From a virus (taxonomy: Duplodnaviria; Heunggongvirae; Uroviricota; Caudoviricetes), in IMG/VR virus record IMGVR_UViG_3300014922_000029: a DNA stretch of 9,552 bases. The stretch is one strand, 5' to 3'. Positions 2,083 through 5,794 of the stretch are shown piece by piece. The translations under genes and the position numbers were made by a program. A model generated the notes under the pieces. That model searched no databases and had not been told where the DNA came from. It saw only the letters and a list, made by a program, of their open reading frames with translations. Every line of letters begins with the position of its first letter. The stretch's first letter is position 1.

Positions 2083-2277
2083 TTAAGAAGGTTGTTCCGG
2101 AATGAGTGGGGCTTCTGTTTTTGCTCCGGCTGACTGACTGGCGCTGATTTTCTCTGCGGCCCTTTTATCAATCTGCCTGCGCCAGAAATCGCGCACTGCC
2201 CTGTACCCACCCGAAAGAAGATACAGCACACAGACCGCCGTACAGAAGTACAGCATCACCTGATGAACAAATGTCAT
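2083..2277 (-). CDS. Hypothetical small membrane protein, 64 aa (one N-terminal TM helix, charged tail)
   Basis: ATG at 2277; MTFVHQVMLYFCTAVCVLYLLSGGY hydrophobic segment. Co-directional and closely spaced with the 96-aa ORF (25-nt gap). Confidence 0.4.
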   Translation of the reverse strand: MTFVHQVMLYFCTAVCVLYLLSGGYRAVRDFWRRQIDKRAAEKISASQSAGAKTEAPLIPEQPS

Positions 2278-2374
2278 AGTTTCTTACCGTTATGGTTGAC
2301 AATGAGAACTGTTTTCATTTAAAAAACCGATATACGAAAGCATCTTTTCTTTACATTCTCCATTGGGATTACCT

Positions 2375-2411
2375 CCGCCAGCTTCCGTTCCTGCCGCTGG
2401 CGGCTTTTTTT
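2375..2411 (+). terminator. Plus-strand intrinsic terminator in the intergenic region 3' of nanS-p
   Basis: ccgccagc (2375-2382) pairs with gctggcgg (2396-2403); alternatively a short gccg-ctgg-cggc hairpin. Followed by ttttttt at 2405-2411. On the minus strand the hairpin is preceded, not followed, by the T-run, so it is oriented for plus-strand transcription. Confidence 0.4.
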
Positions 2412-2416
2412 GCCGG

Positions 2417-4405
2417 TTATGATGATGCCCGGCTTTCGTTAACTTTGACTGTGACCGTATCAAGCAGTACAGGATACGTCGCTTTTGCCCCCGTGATATC
2501 TGTCAGCGTCAGCGTATCTGCTGTAAAGCCATCATTTGTCCACATCACAAGGTCAAACGCCGTCTGCTCTGTACCATCAATCACCGGAACGACTCTTTCG
2601 CTGTTATTTCCCGCAAAGCGGAAAACAACCGTATGCCAGTTATGGTCAAACGCACCAAATGTACCCAGTTGTGCATTCGACGTGCCCTTGTGGTGCATAA
2701 GATTCAGATTTGATGCATCCGTCTGAAGGAAGAATGATGCCAGCATACTGTTTGCTGCCGCGCCTGACGCCCACTGCGACACCGGCCAGTAGAGACCAAA
2801 GACAAACTGTCCGTTCACCAGTTCGCTTCCATCCGGAATTTTGAACCGTACGGCAATTTCACCCCCCTTGCTGAGAAGATTTTTTGCCTCCTCCACTGCA
2901 ACAGTACAGAACATTTTCCAGGACGTCAGTTTACCGGGCTGTTTTTCCAGTCGCAGCGCTTTCCGTCCACCGTCATCAGTCACAGTGCCTTTGCCACCGG
3001 CAGCCCCCCACTGCTGCTCTGTCCATACACCATTTCCACTGTTCGCATCATATTCAGCCACCGTCCTGGTACTGCTCACGGCCTCATCATGACCAGTACC
3101 AGCAACACCGCCATCCTGCGGTTTCTCAACACCCGGTACCCCCGGACTGACATCATCACCGGGAGTTGTACCACCCGACTGCGGTGCGCTCTGCCCGGTA
3201 AGGAACGATAATGTCCGCCCGGCGTACTGCAAAATGGCACCTGCCAGGCGGTCTGAAACAATGCCTCTTCGCGCCCATGAACTGAAGTGCGTTTTACGAT
3301 CGGCTGACGTCCAGTTACTGGCAGTGCGTGACGCAGCGCCATAGTATCCCGCCGGGATAATGTCCGGATCTTCTGACGGCTCGTTTGTCGGCACATTCAC
3401 ACCATGCTCATCCGTCATCAACGGCACAAAGTGAATATTCTGCGCAGCTTTGCCTTTATACCCACCGTAAACCGCCTCATACGGCGCTGCATACCTTTCC
3501 TTCCAGTAGTACGTGGTATCACCGCAAATCCACGGGACGCTGGCCGTTGTCCCGCCAGTACACTGCTCTGCCACATCTGCCAGTTCCGTACGGAACTGAT
3601 TTACCATGGCAAGGAAAAGCGCATTGTGTTCTGCATGTCTCCCCGAACTGACATCTTTTTCTCCCTGCATCCAAATCACTGATAACAGCACGTTCTTCGG
3701 ATTTTTCTTCAGGGCCGCACGGGTTCTGCTGACCAGGTCATAATACAGCGGTTTATCCGCCCCCCACAGGGACGAGCCTGCGGTCGCTCCCGACGCTGCG
3801 TTAAACGCCCCCTCGGCCCCCGCAGTAAATCCCGAATCGCCACGGCCACATGGAACAAGAAGGATACCCGCATTCGCAGGCATAAACGGCAGCAGCTTTT
3901 TGGCAACATGCAGAGCATGCCCCACACAACCGTACTGCCCTTTATTAAGGTCCGCTTCAGGATGATTCAGGTTACTCATATCCTGCACATCATGCAGACA
4001 GTGGTCTGCCGGAATGATGTCGTTATATTTACAGGCGGCACCACCCGGCGTCACCGTACTGCGACGCGCCAGCTGTTTAATACGCGGGTCCGGACGGTCA
4101 TATGTCTCCGGCAGCGGCAGCCCTTCCCCAAAAGACATTGAGTTTGACTGCCCCGCCAGAACAACAACAAAGTAATACTCCGGTTCGCTGGTGGTGCTGA
4201 TAACTGTGCCTTCTCCATCCGACGGCTTCACCACCACAGGTGTGGTGACATCACCTTCCGCCGCAATGGCCTGCATCAGGGTATAAGGCGTGATGGCGAC
4301 AGGGCTGCCAAATGGCTGCCACCCCTCCTTCAGTTTTTGTGTCAGTCGCTCCGCAAGGTCTGACGGCGACGCCGCCCTGACCACATCGTAGTGTTTAAAT
4401 GTCAT
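2417..4405 (-). CDS. nanS-p: Prophage-encoded sialate O-acetylesterase of the NanS-p type (N-terminal DUF1737-like region, SGNH/SASA esterase core, C-terminal probable carbohydrate-binding region)
   Basis: 662-aa ORF. N-terminus MTFKHYDVVRAASPSDLAERLTQKLKEGWQPFG and the esterase motif VVLAGQSNSMSFG match the NanS-p family found between stx and the lysis genes in Stx phages. Size and position between the moron locus and the lysis cassette fit. Confidence 0.85.
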   Translation of the reverse strand: MTFKHYDVVRAASPSDLAERLTQKLKEGWQPFGSPVAITPYTLMQAIAAEGDVTTPVVVKPSDGEGTVISTTSEPEYYFVVVLAGQSNSMSFGEGLPLPETYDRPDPRIKQLARRSTVTPGGAACKYNDIIPADHCLHDVQDMSNLNHPEADLNKGQYGCVGHALHVAKKLLPFMPANAGILLVPCGRGDSGFTAGAEGAFNAASGATAGSSLWGADKPLYYDLVSRTRAALKKNPKNVLLSVIWMQGEKDVSSGRHAEHNALFLAMVNQFRTELADVAEQCTGGTTASVPWICGDTTYYWKERYAAPYEAVYGGYKGKAAQNIHFVPLMTDEHGVNVPTNEPSEDPDIIPAGYYGAASRTASNWTSADRKTHFSSWARRGIVSDRLAGAILQYAGRTLSFLTGQSAPQSGGTTPGDDVSPGVPGVEKPQDGGVAGTGHDEAVSSTRTVAEYDANSGNGVWTEQQWGAAGGKGTVTDDGGRKALRLEKQPGKLTSWKMFCTVAVEEAKNLLSKGGEIAVRFKIPDGSELVNGQFVFGLYWPVSQWASGAAANSMLASFFLQTDASNLNLMHHKGTSNAQLGTFGAFDHNWHTVVFRFAGNNSERVVPVIDGTEQTAFDLVMWTNDGFTADTLTLTDITGAKATYPVLLDTVTVKVNESRASS

Positions 4406-4502
4406 GAATCCTCCCGGTCGGGATAATGTTGTGAGTCAGATGAGGGGCGGGCTGAAGTCCGGAAGTTACAGGACAATGGCAGGAGGAAGACTACAGCCCG
4501 CA

Positions 4503-4533
4503 ATACGAAAAAGGCCGCGCAGTTGCGCAGCCT
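4503..4533 (-). terminator. Intrinsic terminator (minus strand) between the lipoprotein moron and nanS-p
   Basis: Minus-strand RNA aggcugcgc-aacu-gcgcggccu forms a 9-bp stem including one U-G pair, followed by uuuuucguauu. Confidence 0.65.
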
Positions 4534-4586
4534 TATGAATTCTGGTTAAAATCCATTCGATTATAAAAATGTATATCTCATGCTGT

Positions 4587-4616
4587 NNNNNNNNNNNNNN
4601 NNNNNNNNNNNNNNNN
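4587..4616. other. Run of 30 N (gap or masked sequence) in the non-coding stretch
   Basis: Literal n characters in the sequence. Confidence 1.
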
Positions 4617-4885
4617 AGAAAGCCCCTCCGGAGAGGGGCTGGAGAGTGGCGCTATGTGCCATTGCATGGTGCCGGGTGCCTCCCGGTGAGTTCAGCCCGG
4701 TGACACTAAACCCGCATATTCTCGCTTACGATCATCAAAGAGATCATACCGTTCACCAGTCGCCCCTCCGCACAGGGGGATTCACCATGCGAAATTTTTT
4801 TAACAAATGCTCAGTCTGACAGGCAACTGTCAACTTACTGAATTGTGAGGAATTTAACACTTCACAGCACAATATCTTTCCAGCG

Positions 4886-4927
4886 CCCCAAAATCATCAG
4901 GACAGGAGAAAATCTTCTCCCCCTGTC
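4886..4927 (-). terminator. Possible terminator hairpin overlapping the lipoprotein stop codon
   Basis: gacaggagaa (4901-4910) pairs with ttctcc(ccc)tgtc (4915-4927) around loop aatc, with a 3-nt bulge. On the minus strand it is followed by an interrupted T-run (cugaugauuuugg). Weak. Confidence 0.3.
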
Positions 4928-5354
4928 AGAGTTTAAAATCCAGCACGCCATTTCTAAATGCTTTATATACTCCTGAAGACGGTGGTGATGGTATATCAGC
5001 ATTCTTTACTGCATTCATCGCTTCACGACATAAATCGGGATCACCGCTTTCTCTTTTAACCTGTAGCAGAAGACCATTCGGGGCCATATACATTCTCAGT
5101 GAACACTCTTTTCCTGAATACTTACTCGCATCCTTTAACTGTTCTTCTATGGCTTTCCTGACCTGAATGGCATACTGCCTGATTTCTTCACTGGCATCAG
5201 GGGTACGTTCCGATGAGCTCAAATTTTGCGACTTTATTAATTTATCTGAGTGATACAGAGAAGCATCATAATTATTTGTCGATACATCTTTTGTGCAGCC
5301 AGTTGTCAGACTGGCTAATATCAAAACAAGAACTGGTACAGCACGGCAATACAT
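4926..5354 (-). CDS. Lipoprotein with a TolA C-terminal (domain III)-like domain; predicted Lol-sorted outer-membrane lipoprotein
   Basis: 142-aa ORF; ATG at 5354 with GGAG Shine-Dalgarno about 9 nt upstream. Signal peptide MYCRAVPVLVLILASLTTGC with lipobox L-T-T-G-C and no Asp at +2. The C-terminal 85 residues (IRQYAIQVRKAIEEQLKDASKYSGKECSLRMYMAPNGLLLQVKRESGDPDLCREAMNAVKNADIPSPPSSGVYKAFRNGVLDFKL) align along their length with E. coli TolA domain III as I recall it (...YAGQIKSAIESKFYDASSYAGKTCTLRIKLAPDGMLLDIKPEGGDPALCQAALAAAKLAKIPKPPSQAVYEVFKNAPLDFKP). The gene and its upstream region are AT-rich relative to neighbours. Confidence 0.75.
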   Translation of the reverse strand: MYCRAVPVLVLILASLTTGCTKDVSTNNYDASLYHSDKLIKSQNLSSSERTPDASEEIRQYAIQVRKAIEEQLKDASKYSGKECSLRMYMAPNGLLLQVKRESGDPDLCREAMNAVKNADIPSPPSSGVYKAFRNGVLDFKL

Positions 5355-5632: not shown

Positions 5633-5709
5633 TGGACCGCCATCGAGGACTCGAACCCCGCGCAGCCAGCTTCGAAGGCTGGCGCTCTATCCCGATGAGC
5701 TAATGGCGG
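5633..5709 (-). tRNA. tRNA-Arg, anticodon UCG (reads CGA/CGG)
   Basis: Reverse complement folds as a cloverleaf by hand: acceptor ccgccat/atggcgg, D stem gctc/gagc, anticodon stem ccagc/gctgg with loop cuUCGaa, T arm cgggg-ttcgagt-cctcg, discriminator U, encoded CCA. Unusual C1:G72 first pair. Confidence 0.8.
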
Positions 5710-5718
5710 TATGTGATA

Positions 5719-5794
5719 TGGTGGCCCTTGCTGGATTTGAACCAGCGACCTGGCGATTATGAGTCGCTCGCTCTCACCACTGAGCTAAAGGGCC
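5719..5794 (-). tRNA. tRNA-Ile2 type (anticodon CAU, lysidine-modified in vivo; formally could be tRNA-Met)
   Basis: Reverse complement ggccctttagctcagtggtgagagcgagcgactCATaatcgccaggtcgctggttcaaatccagcaagggccacca folds as a canonical cloverleaf and is near-identical in layout to E. coli ileX-type tRNA as I remember it; encoded CCA. Stx-type phages carry an ileZ-arg tRNA cluster at this position. Confidence 0.85.

What the first reader, a model, noticed from the sequence alone, without database searches (positions are those of the whole stretch)
2291..2416. Orphan plus-strand promoter-terminator pair: candidate ~85-nt small RNA opposing the late operon
Every gene in the window is on the minus strand, yet the intergenic region between nanS-p and the small ORFs carries a perfect TTGACA -35 (2296-2301), an A/T-rich weak -10 (TTAAAA/TAAAAA at 2319-2325) and, about 85 nt downstream, a GC hairpin followed by T7 oriented for plus-strand termination. 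The hairpin has no T-run on the minus side, so it is not the nanS-p terminator. The predicted RNA would be antisense to the 5' leader of the 64-aa membrane-protein mRNA, in the manner of lambda antisense RNAs such as OOP.
Basis: seen in the sequence. Interest (0 to 1): 0.45.

Follow-up and report, generated by a model that had tools for sequence, protein, structure and literature searches.

The report
Unannotated prophage small RNA gene
The promoter-plus-terminator pair is real and conserved, and it sits on the same strand at the same prophage position where small regulatory RNAs (PasA, PasC, EcOnc52) have already been detected in pathogenic E. coli, so it is most likely an undescribed sequence variant of that known kind of RNA gene.

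Summary
On the + strand there is a perfect TTGACA (2296-2301), an A-rich weak -10 (2319-2325), and an 8-bp GC hairpin (2375-2382/2396-2403, 13-nt loop) followed by C+T7 (2405-2411). This is the only such hairpin+T-run in the window, and none appeared in 300 shuffles.

The unit lies between the nanS-p-type esterase gene and a DUF1378 gene, both on the - strand. In 51 distinct homologous spacers, collected with an anchor inside the DUF1378 gene, 50 keep the -35 and all keep the hairpin and T-run. The RNA body falls into six sequence subtypes.

PasA and PasC (EPEC, Northern-validated, Hfq-dependent) and EcOnc52 (EHEC Hfq-CRAC) lie at the same locus, antisense to the late genes. Their mapped 5' ends fall 30±1 nt after a TTGACA, which predicts an ~81-nt RNA here (2331-2411).

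Covariance models built in both directions do not link the window's RNA body to PasA/PasC. They share only the terminator core GCCAGC/GCTGGC. I therefore call it a new member of a known kind, not PasA itself.

There is no expression evidence for this subtype. The OOP-like cis-antisense mechanism remains untested. This subtype group is present in 975 of 5,426 complete E. coli genomes and in many Stx2 phages, and is annotated as an RNA gene in none of the records I inspected.

The parts
2296..2301 (+). -35 hexamer TTGACA of the small-RNA promoter
   Evidence: Read. TTGACA in 47, TTGACT in 3 and TTGAAA in 1 of 51 distinct homologous spacers. PasA and PasC 5' ends and the EcOnc52 CRAC peak edge lie 30±1 nt after the last base of the equivalent hexamer.
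2319..2325 (+). Weak A-rich -10 region (TTAAAA with a 17-nt spacer, or TAAAAA with an 18-nt spacer)
   Evidence: Read. Most W subtypes keep T-A-n-A-A-A at this position (TAAAAA, TAGAAA, TACAAA). It lacks the final T, so the generic promoter scan does not call it. Function is inferred.
2331..2411 (+). Predicted primary transcript, about 81 nt (5' end ±2 nt; 3' end within the U run)
   Evidence: 5' end inferred from the geometry of the PasA, PasC and EcOnc52 ends. The fold gives a 44-nt largely unpaired 5' part, an 8-bp hairpin and U7, with MFE -18.1 kcal/mol and z -1.8. The model built from this subtype group scores 104.7 bits on exactly 2331-2411, although the window sequence was in that model.
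2356..2363 (+). Octamer UUCUCCAU in the unpaired region, a candidate seed; on the - strand it reads ATGGAGAA
   Evidence: Identical in the consensus sequences of subtypes W1, W2, W3 and W5 while the flanking sequence differs. A few individual variants deviate. Absent from W4 and W6.
2366..2376 (+). GGAUUACCUCC, which resembles the 16S rRNA 3' end GGAUCACCUCC; on the - strand it is a strong Shine-Dalgarno sequence (GGAGGT) 8 nt before ATG 2363-2361
   Evidence: Sequence read. The 16S comparison is from my own knowledge of the E. coli 16S 3' end.
2375..2403 (+). Terminator hairpin: arms 2375-2382 and 2396-2403, loop 2383-2395
   Evidence: The core GCCAG/CTGGC is invariant across all subtypes and in PasA, PasC and EcOnc52. 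Flanking pairs covary (C-G to U-A, with U·G intermediates). 93.4% of cells are paired, and the covariation score is 0.176 against 0.086 in shuffles, reached by 0 of 500.
2405..2411 (+). U7 tail of the intrinsic terminator, a likely Hfq-binding 3' end
   Evidence: A T-run of 5-9 is present in all 51 distinct homologous spacers.
2417..4405 (-). Flanking gene: nanS-p-type sialate O-acetylesterase; its stop codon lies 5 nt from the T-run
   Evidence: DUF1737 + SASA + DUF6645. ORF.
2083..2277 (-). Flanking gene: DUF1378 small membrane protein (64 aa); its start lies 19 nt from the -35 hexamer
   Evidence: Pfam DUF1378, E 4.5e-35. ORF.

Best explanation
Window 2296-2411 (+) is a small-RNA gene of a lambdoid prophage, transcribed against the direction of the late operon.

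Proposed mechanism:
- A sigma-70 promoter (perfect -35, weak A-rich -10) starts transcription near 2331.
- The GC hairpin plus U7 ends it at about 2405-2411, giving an RNA of about 81 nt.
- In a lysogen the late operon is stopped at tR' upstream, so this promoter is free to fire.
- The RNA has the build of an Hfq-dependent trans-acting RNA: a long unpaired, U/C-rich 5' part and a terminator hairpin with a U tail.
- It most likely pairs with ribosome-binding regions of host or prophage mRNAs. The pairing would use the conserved UUCUCCAU / ACCUCC stretch and/or the GCCAGC 5' arm of the terminator, which is where the PasA seed was placed.
- It is the counterpart, in prophages that carry the DUF1378 module (including the Stx2 phage Sp5 and the O104:H4 Stx2a phage), of PasA/PasC of EPEC and EcOnc51/52 of EHEC.

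What is shown: the sequence elements, their conservation, the shared locus, strand and geometry, and helix covariation.

What is inferred: transcription, the exact RNA ends, Hfq binding, and the seed and targets.
For: (1) The elements are present and are not chance.

(2) I collected 51 distinct spacers using a 16-mer inside the DUF1378 gene, so the sampling did not depend on the element itself. 50 of 51 keep TTGAC[A/T] at the same place. All keep the hairpin plus T5-9. The body falls into six subtypes.

(3) The terminator helix has three pairs with changes on both sides and U·G intermediates. U·G pairs only work on the + strand RNA, because they would be A·C on the other strand. 0 of 500 shuffles reach the observed covariation score.

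(4) RNAs at the same locus and strand have been measured:
- PasA: NC_011601 complement 743499-743415, 85 nt.
- PasC: 1290909-1290832, 79 nt.
- Both are Northern-validated and Hfq-dependent, and lie between the SASA esterase gene and the lysis genes in '> < >' orientation.
- EcOnc52: an Hfq-CRAC peak directly after the esterase stop codon in Sp4.

(5) All three mapped 5' ends lie 30±1 nt after a TTGACA. This puts the window's start at about 2331.

(6) The spacing between pasA and pasD2 across the esterase gene is about 2,170 bp in the literature. Here the distance from 2411 to the STnc100/PasD-like RNA at 4610 is about 2,200 bp.

(7) The fold shows an unpaired 5' region plus a terminator.

(8) Spread: 975 of 5,426 complete E. 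coli genomes, median 2 copies, and 306 phage records, mostly Stx phages.
Against: - No transcript data exist for this subtype.
- The Sp5 copy is not among the 63 Hfq-bound candidates of Tree 2014. That list was filtered for reproducible peaks, so this is weak negative evidence.
- The -10 is poor (no T at the last position), and the generic promoter scan does not call the site.
- The 13-nt loop is long for an intrinsic terminator.
- A covariance model of PasA/PasC/EcOnc51/52 scores the window at only 8.6 bits (E 4.2, terminator only). The reverse model scores PasA/PasC at 12 bits or less. Homology of the RNA body is therefore not shown.
- The -35 lies 19-24 nt upstream of the DUF1378 start codon. 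Part of its conservation could serve translation of that gene on the other strand.
- The outer seven pairs of the stem do not vary within this subtype group.
Confidence: 0.65

Rival explanations
1. The RNA is made but works mainly in cis, in the manner of lambda OOP or a type I antitoxin. It would pair perfectly with the late transcript between nanS-p and DUF1378, covering the strong Shine-Dalgarno sequence and ATG at 2376-2361 (-). That would trigger cleavage or block ribosome entry, damping leaky expression of the downstream small membrane protein and lysis genes in lysogens.
For: - The RNA is fully complementary to the late-transcript spacer.
- The conserved block of the RNA mirrors a ribosome-binding-site-like sequence on the late strand: GGAGGT, 8 nt, then ATGGAGAA.
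- PasA forms RIL-seq chimeras with the 3' end of its neighbouring esterase mRNA, and has a 236-nt read-through form antisense to that region.
- The downstream gene encodes a small membrane protein, DUF1378.
Against: - The RNA overlaps no annotated coding sequence and not the DUF1378 ribosome-binding site.
- The mini-ORF behind the mirrored start site is 4-25 aa, frameshifted among near-identical variants, and absent in subtypes W4 and W6.
- Most recorded PasA partners are trans targets.
- Late transcription is off in lysogens and massively on after induction, when an 81-nt RNA from a weak promoter would be outnumbered.
Confidence: 0.15
2. No stable RNA of its own is made. In this reading the conserved blocks serve the - strand: the DUF1378 5' leader and ribosome-binding site, and a translated mini-ORF start. 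Alternatively the hairpin plus T-run is only a safety terminator that stops stray antisense transcription from entering nanS-p.
For: - The -35 lies inside the 25 nt upstream of the DUF1378 start, and that whole stretch is conserved.
- SD-like sequences of differing sequence but similar spacing precede ATGGAGAA in four subtypes.
- The -10 is weak.
- There is no CRAC peak reported for the Sp5 copy.
Against: - TTGACA recurs at the same distance from mapped RNA 5' ends in PasA, PasC and EcOnc52 units, where no gene start lies next to it.
- The distance from promoter to terminator stays in a narrow range (body roughly 70-97 nt) although the body sequence is replaced between subtypes.
- U·G pairs in the stem fit only the + strand RNA.
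- No + strand promoter that would need such a safety terminator is evident upstream.
Confidence: 0.15
3. The + strand ORF 2292-2726 (144 aa) or the - strand ORF 2290-2463 (57 aa) is a real gene, and the 'promoter' and 'terminator' are coincidental features of coding sequence.
For: Both ORFs are open in this window.
Against: - Close variants differ by single-base length changes in the A-run (5, 6 or 7 A) and the T-run (5-9 T). These would shift the frame.
- The ATG at 2292 is ATT in the Sp5 subtype, followed by a stop codon.
- The 144-aa ORF runs antisense through nanS-p.
- No annotated record calls either ORF.
Confidence: 0.02

Closest known systems
PasA / PasC small RNAs of EPEC E2348/69 (Pearl Mizrahi et al. 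2021, PMC8550237; Zhu, Shabalina & Storz 2026, bioRxiv 10.64898/2026.05.13.724894), with the EHEC counterparts EcOnc51/EcOnc52 (Tree et al. 2014, PMC4104026)
   Same: - Same locus, directly 3' of the phage SASA/nanS-p esterase gene and before the lysis genes.
- Same antisense orientation.
- A TTGACA -35 lying 30 nt before the RNA start.
- Length of 79-85 nt.
- Terminator stem built on GCCAGC...GCTGGC plus U6-7. The PasA seed was mapped to that GCCAGC arm.
- About 2.2 kb from a PasD/STnc100-type RNA on the other side of the esterase gene.
   Different: - The RNA body is unrelated in sequence. Reciprocal covariance models fail.
- The -10 differs (TAAAAA, against TGT-CAGAAA or TGT-GAAAAA).
- The neighbouring gene on the promoter side is DUF1378 rather than a long spacer before the holin gene.
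- There are no expression or Hfq data for this subtype.
- The published BLAST/cmscan census found PasA in only 25 phage genomes, whereas this subtype group is in 306 phage records. It was therefore evidently not counted as PasA.
AsxR / AgvB anti-sRNAs of EHEC prophages (Tree et al. 2014)
   Same: - Prophage late-region RNAs transcribed antisense to the late operon.
- Hfq-bound and intrinsically terminated.
- A family with a conserved 3' part and exchangeable 5' parts.
   Different: - They lie upstream of the esterase gene (AsxR is 282 bp 3' of stx2AB) and are 51-60 nt long.
- Their Rfam families (AgvB and AsxR, cited) give no match in the window at E ≤ 1.
- Their mechanism is to sponge core sRNAs (FnrS, GcvB). 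That was not tested here.
Lambda OOP RNA
   Same: A short (77 nt) RNA with its own promoter and an intrinsic terminator, transcribed against a phage operon.
   Different: OOP overlaps the 3' end of the cII coding sequence and acts in cis through RNase III (my own knowledge; cited as ref. 21 in PMC7547250). The RNA here overlaps no coding sequence and lies in the late region, not the early region.
STnc100 / PasD / StxS-type RNAs (short PR'-tR' transcripts)
   Same: Prophage late-region Hfq-associated RNAs. One copy lies in this window at 4610-4819 (-).
   Different: These are sense to the late operon and arise from early termination of the late transcript. They are 170-260 nt long and have a different fold.

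Membership tests
PasA/PasC/EcOnc51-52 prophage sRNAs | Gene lies between the phage SASA (nanS-p-type) esterase gene and the lysis cassette | tested here: met
   The esterase gene is at 2417-4405 (-). DUF1378, DUF826 and the holin gene follow. PasA and PasC context is shown.
PasA/PasC/EcOnc51-52 prophage sRNAs | Transcribed antisense to the flanking late genes ('> < >') | tested here: met
   The promoter and terminator are oriented on the + strand and the flanking genes are on the - strand. Table S6 gives the orientation for PasA.
PasA/PasC/EcOnc51-52 prophage sRNAs | TTGACA -35 placed 30 nt before the RNA 5' end; RNA of about 80-85 nt | tested here: inconclusive
   The hexamer and the distance to the terminator fit, predicting 81 nt. 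The 5' end of this RNA has not been mapped.
PasA/PasC/EcOnc51-52 prophage sRNAs | Intrinsic terminator whose stem carries GCCAGC...GCTGGC, followed by at least 6 U | tested here: met
PasA/PasC/EcOnc51-52 prophage sRNAs | Sequence and structure similarity of the whole RNA (covariance model built from 14 PasA/PasC/EcOnc51/52 variants) | tested here: not met
   The window scores 8.6 bits, E 4.2, covering model positions 41-83 only. The Sp5 and BP-4795 copies of the sister subtype score 21.6 bits, E 0.011. The reverse model gives 12 bits or less on PasA/PasC.
PasA/PasC/EcOnc51-52 prophage sRNAs | Detected transcript whose abundance depends on Hfq | not testable with these tools
   No transcript data are available here. 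The Sp5 copy is not in the Hfq-CRAC candidate list.
Lambda OOP-type cis-antisense RNA | Overlaps the coding sequence or ribosome-binding site of the gene it controls on the opposite strand | tested here: not met
   The RNA (2331-2411) lies wholly in the spacer. The nanS-p stop is at 2417-2419 and the DUF1378 start is at 2277. It covers only a non-conserved mini-ORF start.
Lambda OOP-type cis-antisense RNA | RNase III-dependent cleavage of the target message | not testable with these tools
   Needs experiment.
Any Rfam 15 family (including AsxR, AgvB, STnc100) | Match to the family's covariance model | tested here: not met
   No match at 2291-2416 at E ≤ 1. PasA itself also has no Rfam family, as shown by a control scan of its locus.

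The most novel reading that the evidence does not exclude
The conserved unpaired block of this RNA (UUCUCCAU ... GGAUUACCUCC) is an 'anti-start-site' module. It resembles the 16S rRNA 3' end plus an anti-AUG. It is also the exact complement of a conserved Shine-Dalgarno-plus-ATG on the late transcript, just upstream of the DUF1378 small membrane protein and the holin gene. On this reading the RNA would act as a lysogeny-phase brake, like a type I antitoxin. It would act on ribosome loading or processing of leaky late transcripts, from its own prophage and from the other copies in the same cell (median 2, up to 7 per genome). It would not act as, or not only as, a PasA-like trans regulator.
Probability: 0.12. 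Interest if true: 0.6.

Novelty: new member of a known kind. Interest (0 to 1): 0.35.

Why it matters
If the RNA is expressed, then the main Stx2 phages carry a PasA-position regulatory RNA that current annotation does not see. That includes the Sakai Sp5 phage and the O104:H4 outbreak phage, along with about one in six complete E. coli genomes. Neither Rfam nor the recent Pas census detects it. These RNAs are made in lysogens and can rewire host gene expression, as AsxR, AgvB, StxS and HnrS do. A missing family member with a different seed therefore means missing targets in EHEC/STEC regulatory maps. The locus also illustrates how these genes evolve. The promoter, the terminator core and the position stay fixed, while the target-recognition body is swapped by recombination. 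Hybrids such as W4 body + W1 terminator, and PasA 5' + PasC 3', were seen. For a specialist this is an expected extension, not a surprise.

Tried and rejected
- **Rfam scan of the whole window at E ≤ 1.** Nothing at the site. A control scan showed that PasA also has no Rfam family.
- **Pattern scan of one genome per species** (TTGACA...CGCCAG...CTGGCG..TTTTT). It returned 110 stretches from unrelated phyla, and none carried any family motif. These are chance matches. The scan was too loose and says only that species-representative genomes do not carry the element in that exact form.
- **Literature search by locus tags** (ECs1210, Z1467, L0106). Only irrelevant papers.
- **Literature search for the hairpin sequence as a text string**, both strands, DNA and RNA letters. 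No paper.
- **Other sources checked.** The StxS paper, an OMV small-RNA paper and a 2025 review of phage sRNAs do not mention this locus. HnrS (EcOnc10-12) is a different locus.
- **Duplex prediction** of the unpaired part of the RNA against the start regions of 12 genes in the window. The best z-score was -2.25 (DUF1327), which is not significant after 12 tests. A genome-wide target search was not possible with these tools.
- **E2348/69 prophage PP4**, checked for a copy of this subtype that the RIL-seq data might have covered. It has no esterase gene and no copy.
- **Protein-coding readings** of the + strand 144-aa and - strand 57-aa ORFs. Rejected because of frameshifting length variants and loss of the start codon in relatives.
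- **A conserved peptide from the - strand mini-ORF.** Rejected: 4-25 aa, frameshifted among variants, absent in two subtypes.
- **An AsxR/AgvB-type RNA between STnc100 and nanS-p (4405-4610).** No + strand terminator is there, only a second - strand terminator at 4534-4511.

Full report
**What is in the sequence.**
The window is the late region of a lambdoid prophage read on its - strand. In transcription order it carries:
- two tRNA genes (5633-5794);
- a TolA-C-terminal-domain protein gene;
- an STnc100/PasD-type RNA (4610-4819, 167.7 bits);
- a 662-aa nanS-p-type esterase gene (DUF1737+SASA+DUF6645, 2417-4405);
- DUF1378 (2083-2277), DUF826, a P21-type holin, DUF1327 and a lysozyme gene.

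The 139-bp spacer between the esterase gene and DUF1378 carries the following on the + strand:
- TTGACA (2296-2301);
- 17 nt, then TTAAAA (2319-2324), or 18 nt, then TAAAAA;
- about 45 nt of U/C-rich sequence;
- the hairpin CCGCCAGC-13 nt-GCTGGCGG (2375-2403);
- C, then T7 (2405-2411), 5 nt before the esterase stop codon.

On the - strand the hairpin has an A-run before it and no T-run after it. A perfect GC-rich stem of at least 7 bp followed by at least 6 T occurs nowhere else in the window on either strand, and in none of 300 dinucleotide shuffles. TTGACA occurs only twice in the window. The other copy sits just upstream of the STnc100-type RNA. The -10 is weak, and the generic promoter scan does not call it.

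**Conservation.**
The spacer has homologues in 975 of 5,426 complete E. coli genomes (2,193 places, median 2 per genome). It also has homologues in 306 phage records, mostly Stx-converting phages, at 72-100% identity. No RNA feature is listed under any of the matches shown. A PGAP-annotated genome with an identical spacer has no ncRNA there.

To sample relatives without selecting on the element itself, I anchored on a 16-mer inside the DUF1378 gene and read the downstream sequence. This gave 51 distinct spacers. Their features are:
- TTGACA in 47, TTGACT in 3 and TTGAAA in 1, always at the same place.
- A hairpin with the core GCCAG/CTGGC followed by 5-9 T in all of them.
- A body between promoter and terminator that falls into six subtypes:
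  - W1, the window's own, with 27 variants;
  - W2, in Sakai Sp5 and BP-4795;
  - W3, in the O104:H4 Stx2a phage phiON-2011;
  - W4, W5 and W6.
- Across the subtype consensus sequences, the conserved blocks are the DUF1378 leader, the -35, a T-A-n-A-A-A motif at the -10, the octamer TTCTCCAT (2356-2363), the stem arms and the T-run.

**RNA-level signal.**
Within this subtype group the outer seven stem pairs never vary. The pairs next to them do:
- C-G is replaced by U-A in two different body backgrounds.
- U·G intermediates occur in three others. These pair only in the + strand RNA.

On an alignment of 21 terminators from all subtypes plus PasA, PasC and EcOnc52:
- 93.4% of cells pair.
- Three of nine pairs change on both sides.
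- The covariation score is 0.176 against 0.086 in shuffles (0 of 500 reach it).
- Slid registers collapse.

The predicted 81-nt RNA folds into a 44-nt mostly unpaired 5' part plus the hairpin and U7. The MFE is -18.1 kcal/mol with z -1.8, which is unremarkable on its own.

**What is known at this locus.**
- Pearl Mizrahi et al. (2021) found PasA and PasC by RIL-seq in EPEC E2348/69 and confirmed them by Northern blot. Their stability depends on Hfq.
- Their Table S6 places PasA at NC_011601 complement 743499-743415 (85 nt; a minor 236-nt form ends at 743264). It lies between the esterase gene E2348C_0688 and E2348C_0689 in '> < >' orientation. PasC is at complement 1290909-1290832. EcOnc51/52 of EHEC are named as homologues.
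- Zhu, Shabalina and Storz (2026) describe pasA and pasD2 as flanking the phage esterase gene about 2,170 bp apart, next to the holin/lysozyme genes. In the window, the distance from 2411 to the STnc100-type RNA at 4610 is about 2,200 bp.
- I read these loci directly. Each unit has a TTGACA, an A-rich -10, a 60-85-nt body, a stem AGCCAGC(A/G)...(C/U)GCUGGCU and U6-7, immediately 3' of the esterase stop or one unit further.
- The PasA and PasC 5' ends lie exactly 30 nt after the last base of the TTGACA. The 5' edge of the EcOnc52 Hfq-CRAC peak lies 31 nt after it.
- Applying the same geometry to the window puts the start at 2331.

**Is it PasA?**
- A covariance model of 14 PasA/PasC/EcOnc51/52 RNAs finds its own members at 50-98 bits. 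It finds the Sp5 and BP-4795 copies of subtype W2 at 21.6 bits (E 0.011). It finds the window at only 8.6 bits (E 4.2), over the terminator alone.
- A model of the window's subtype group finds the window (104.7 bits) and Sp5 (95.2 bits), but PasA/PasC only at 12 bits or less.
- The published census found PasA in 25 of 36,687 phage genomes, mostly stx1 phages. That is far fewer than the 306 phage records that hold this subtype group.
- The variants 'PasA-2' and 'PasA-3' described there match the EcOnc51-type and a terminator-less PasA, not this sequence.

So the element shares position, strand, promoter geometry and terminator core with the Pas family, but not the body. I file it as a new member of that known kind of gene, and not as PasA. 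Hybrids show that bodies and terminators recombine at the conserved core. Examples are W4 body with W1 terminator, and PasA 5' part with PasC 3' part.

**Mechanism.**
The most likely mechanism (0.65) is a primary transcript made in lysogens, bound by Hfq through its U tail and U-rich body, and acting in trans on mRNA start regions. The candidate seeds are the conserved unpaired UUCUCCAU/ACCUCC stretch, or the GCCAGC arm where the PasA seed was mapped. Transcription, Hfq binding and targets are all inferred.

- The RNA overlaps no annotated coding sequence and not the DUF1378 ribosome-binding site.
- It does cover a ribosome-binding-site-like sequence on the late strand (GGAGGT, 8 nt, ATGGAGAA).
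- The mini-ORF behind that site is 4-25 aa, frameshifted among variants, and missing in two subtypes.
- I could not decide whether that mirror image reflects a seed that targets start sites, or a translated leader on the late mRNA.

**Limits.**
- There is no expression evidence for this subtype. The Sp5 copy is not in the 2014 Hfq-CRAC list.
- Part of the -35 conservation may serve the DUF1378 leader on the other strand.
- Target prediction was possible only inside the window and gave nothing significant.

Noticed in passing
window 2319-2376, - strand: The late-strand spacer carries a strong Shine-Dalgarno sequence (GGAGGT, 2376-2371), then 8 nt, then ATGGAGAA (2363-2356). This opens a 14-aa mini-ORF (MENVKKRCFRISVF) that ends at 2319. 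The start-site-like sequence is kept in four of six subtypes, but the peptide is not: it is 4-25 aa and frameshifted among variants. On the + strand the same bases read GGAUUACCUCC, close to the 16S rRNA 3' end. It is unclear which strand is under selection.
   Followed up: partly
window 4610-4819 (-), with TTGACA at 4828-4833 (-): A full-length STnc100 match (167.7 bits, E 1e-38) lies on the late strand, preceded by the only other TTGACA in the window. It is the PasD/StxS-type short PR'-tR' transcript of this prophage. A second - strand terminator follows at 4534-4511.
   Followed up: partly
window 4588-4616: A run of 29 N masks the 3' end of the STnc100-type RNA (its terminator tail) and the sequence just downstream. 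That part cannot be read.
   Followed up: no
window 4926-5354 (-): A 142-aa protein with a TolA C-terminal domain (E 5.7e-23) and a weaker TonB_2 match is encoded between the tRNA genes and the late promoter. It may be a phage cargo gene. It was not examined further.
   Followed up: no
window 5633-5794 (-): Two tRNA genes lie here: anticodon CAT (called Met by ARAGORN; the equivalent Sakai gene is annotated ileZ, tRNA-Ile) and Arg-TCG. This is the usual Stx-phage tRNA cluster, minus argO, in a prophage that has no stx genes in this window.
   Followed up: no
L002 2766-3036 (- strand; E2348/69 PP2) and L006 1917-2184 (Sakai Sp12): PasA-type loci hold two tandem small-RNA units, each with its own TTGACA and terminator. 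The second unit is EcOnc52-type and scores 50.7 bits with the Pas model. The published 'minor 236-nt' 3' end of PasA (743264) falls at the second unit's terminator. The minor form therefore looks like read-through of the first terminator, and the second unit may be an unreported RNA in EPEC.
   Followed up: partly
L002 3134-3163 (+), L005 2545-2574 (+), L006 1788-1817 (-): In PasA/PasC-type loci a late-direction hairpin, GCCGTCAGTGGGTGACACTGGCGGC followed by T6, lies between the Pas promoter and the holin gene. It shares the CTGGCGG arm with the window's terminator. This gives a convergent terminator pair around the Pas gene.
   Followed up: no
whole window: Terminator-like sites are more frequent than expected: 24 found against 8.6±3.0 in shuffles. 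Most are on the late (-) strand between genes, for example 7385-7370, 7057-7040, 1757-1729 and 427-395.
   Followed up: no
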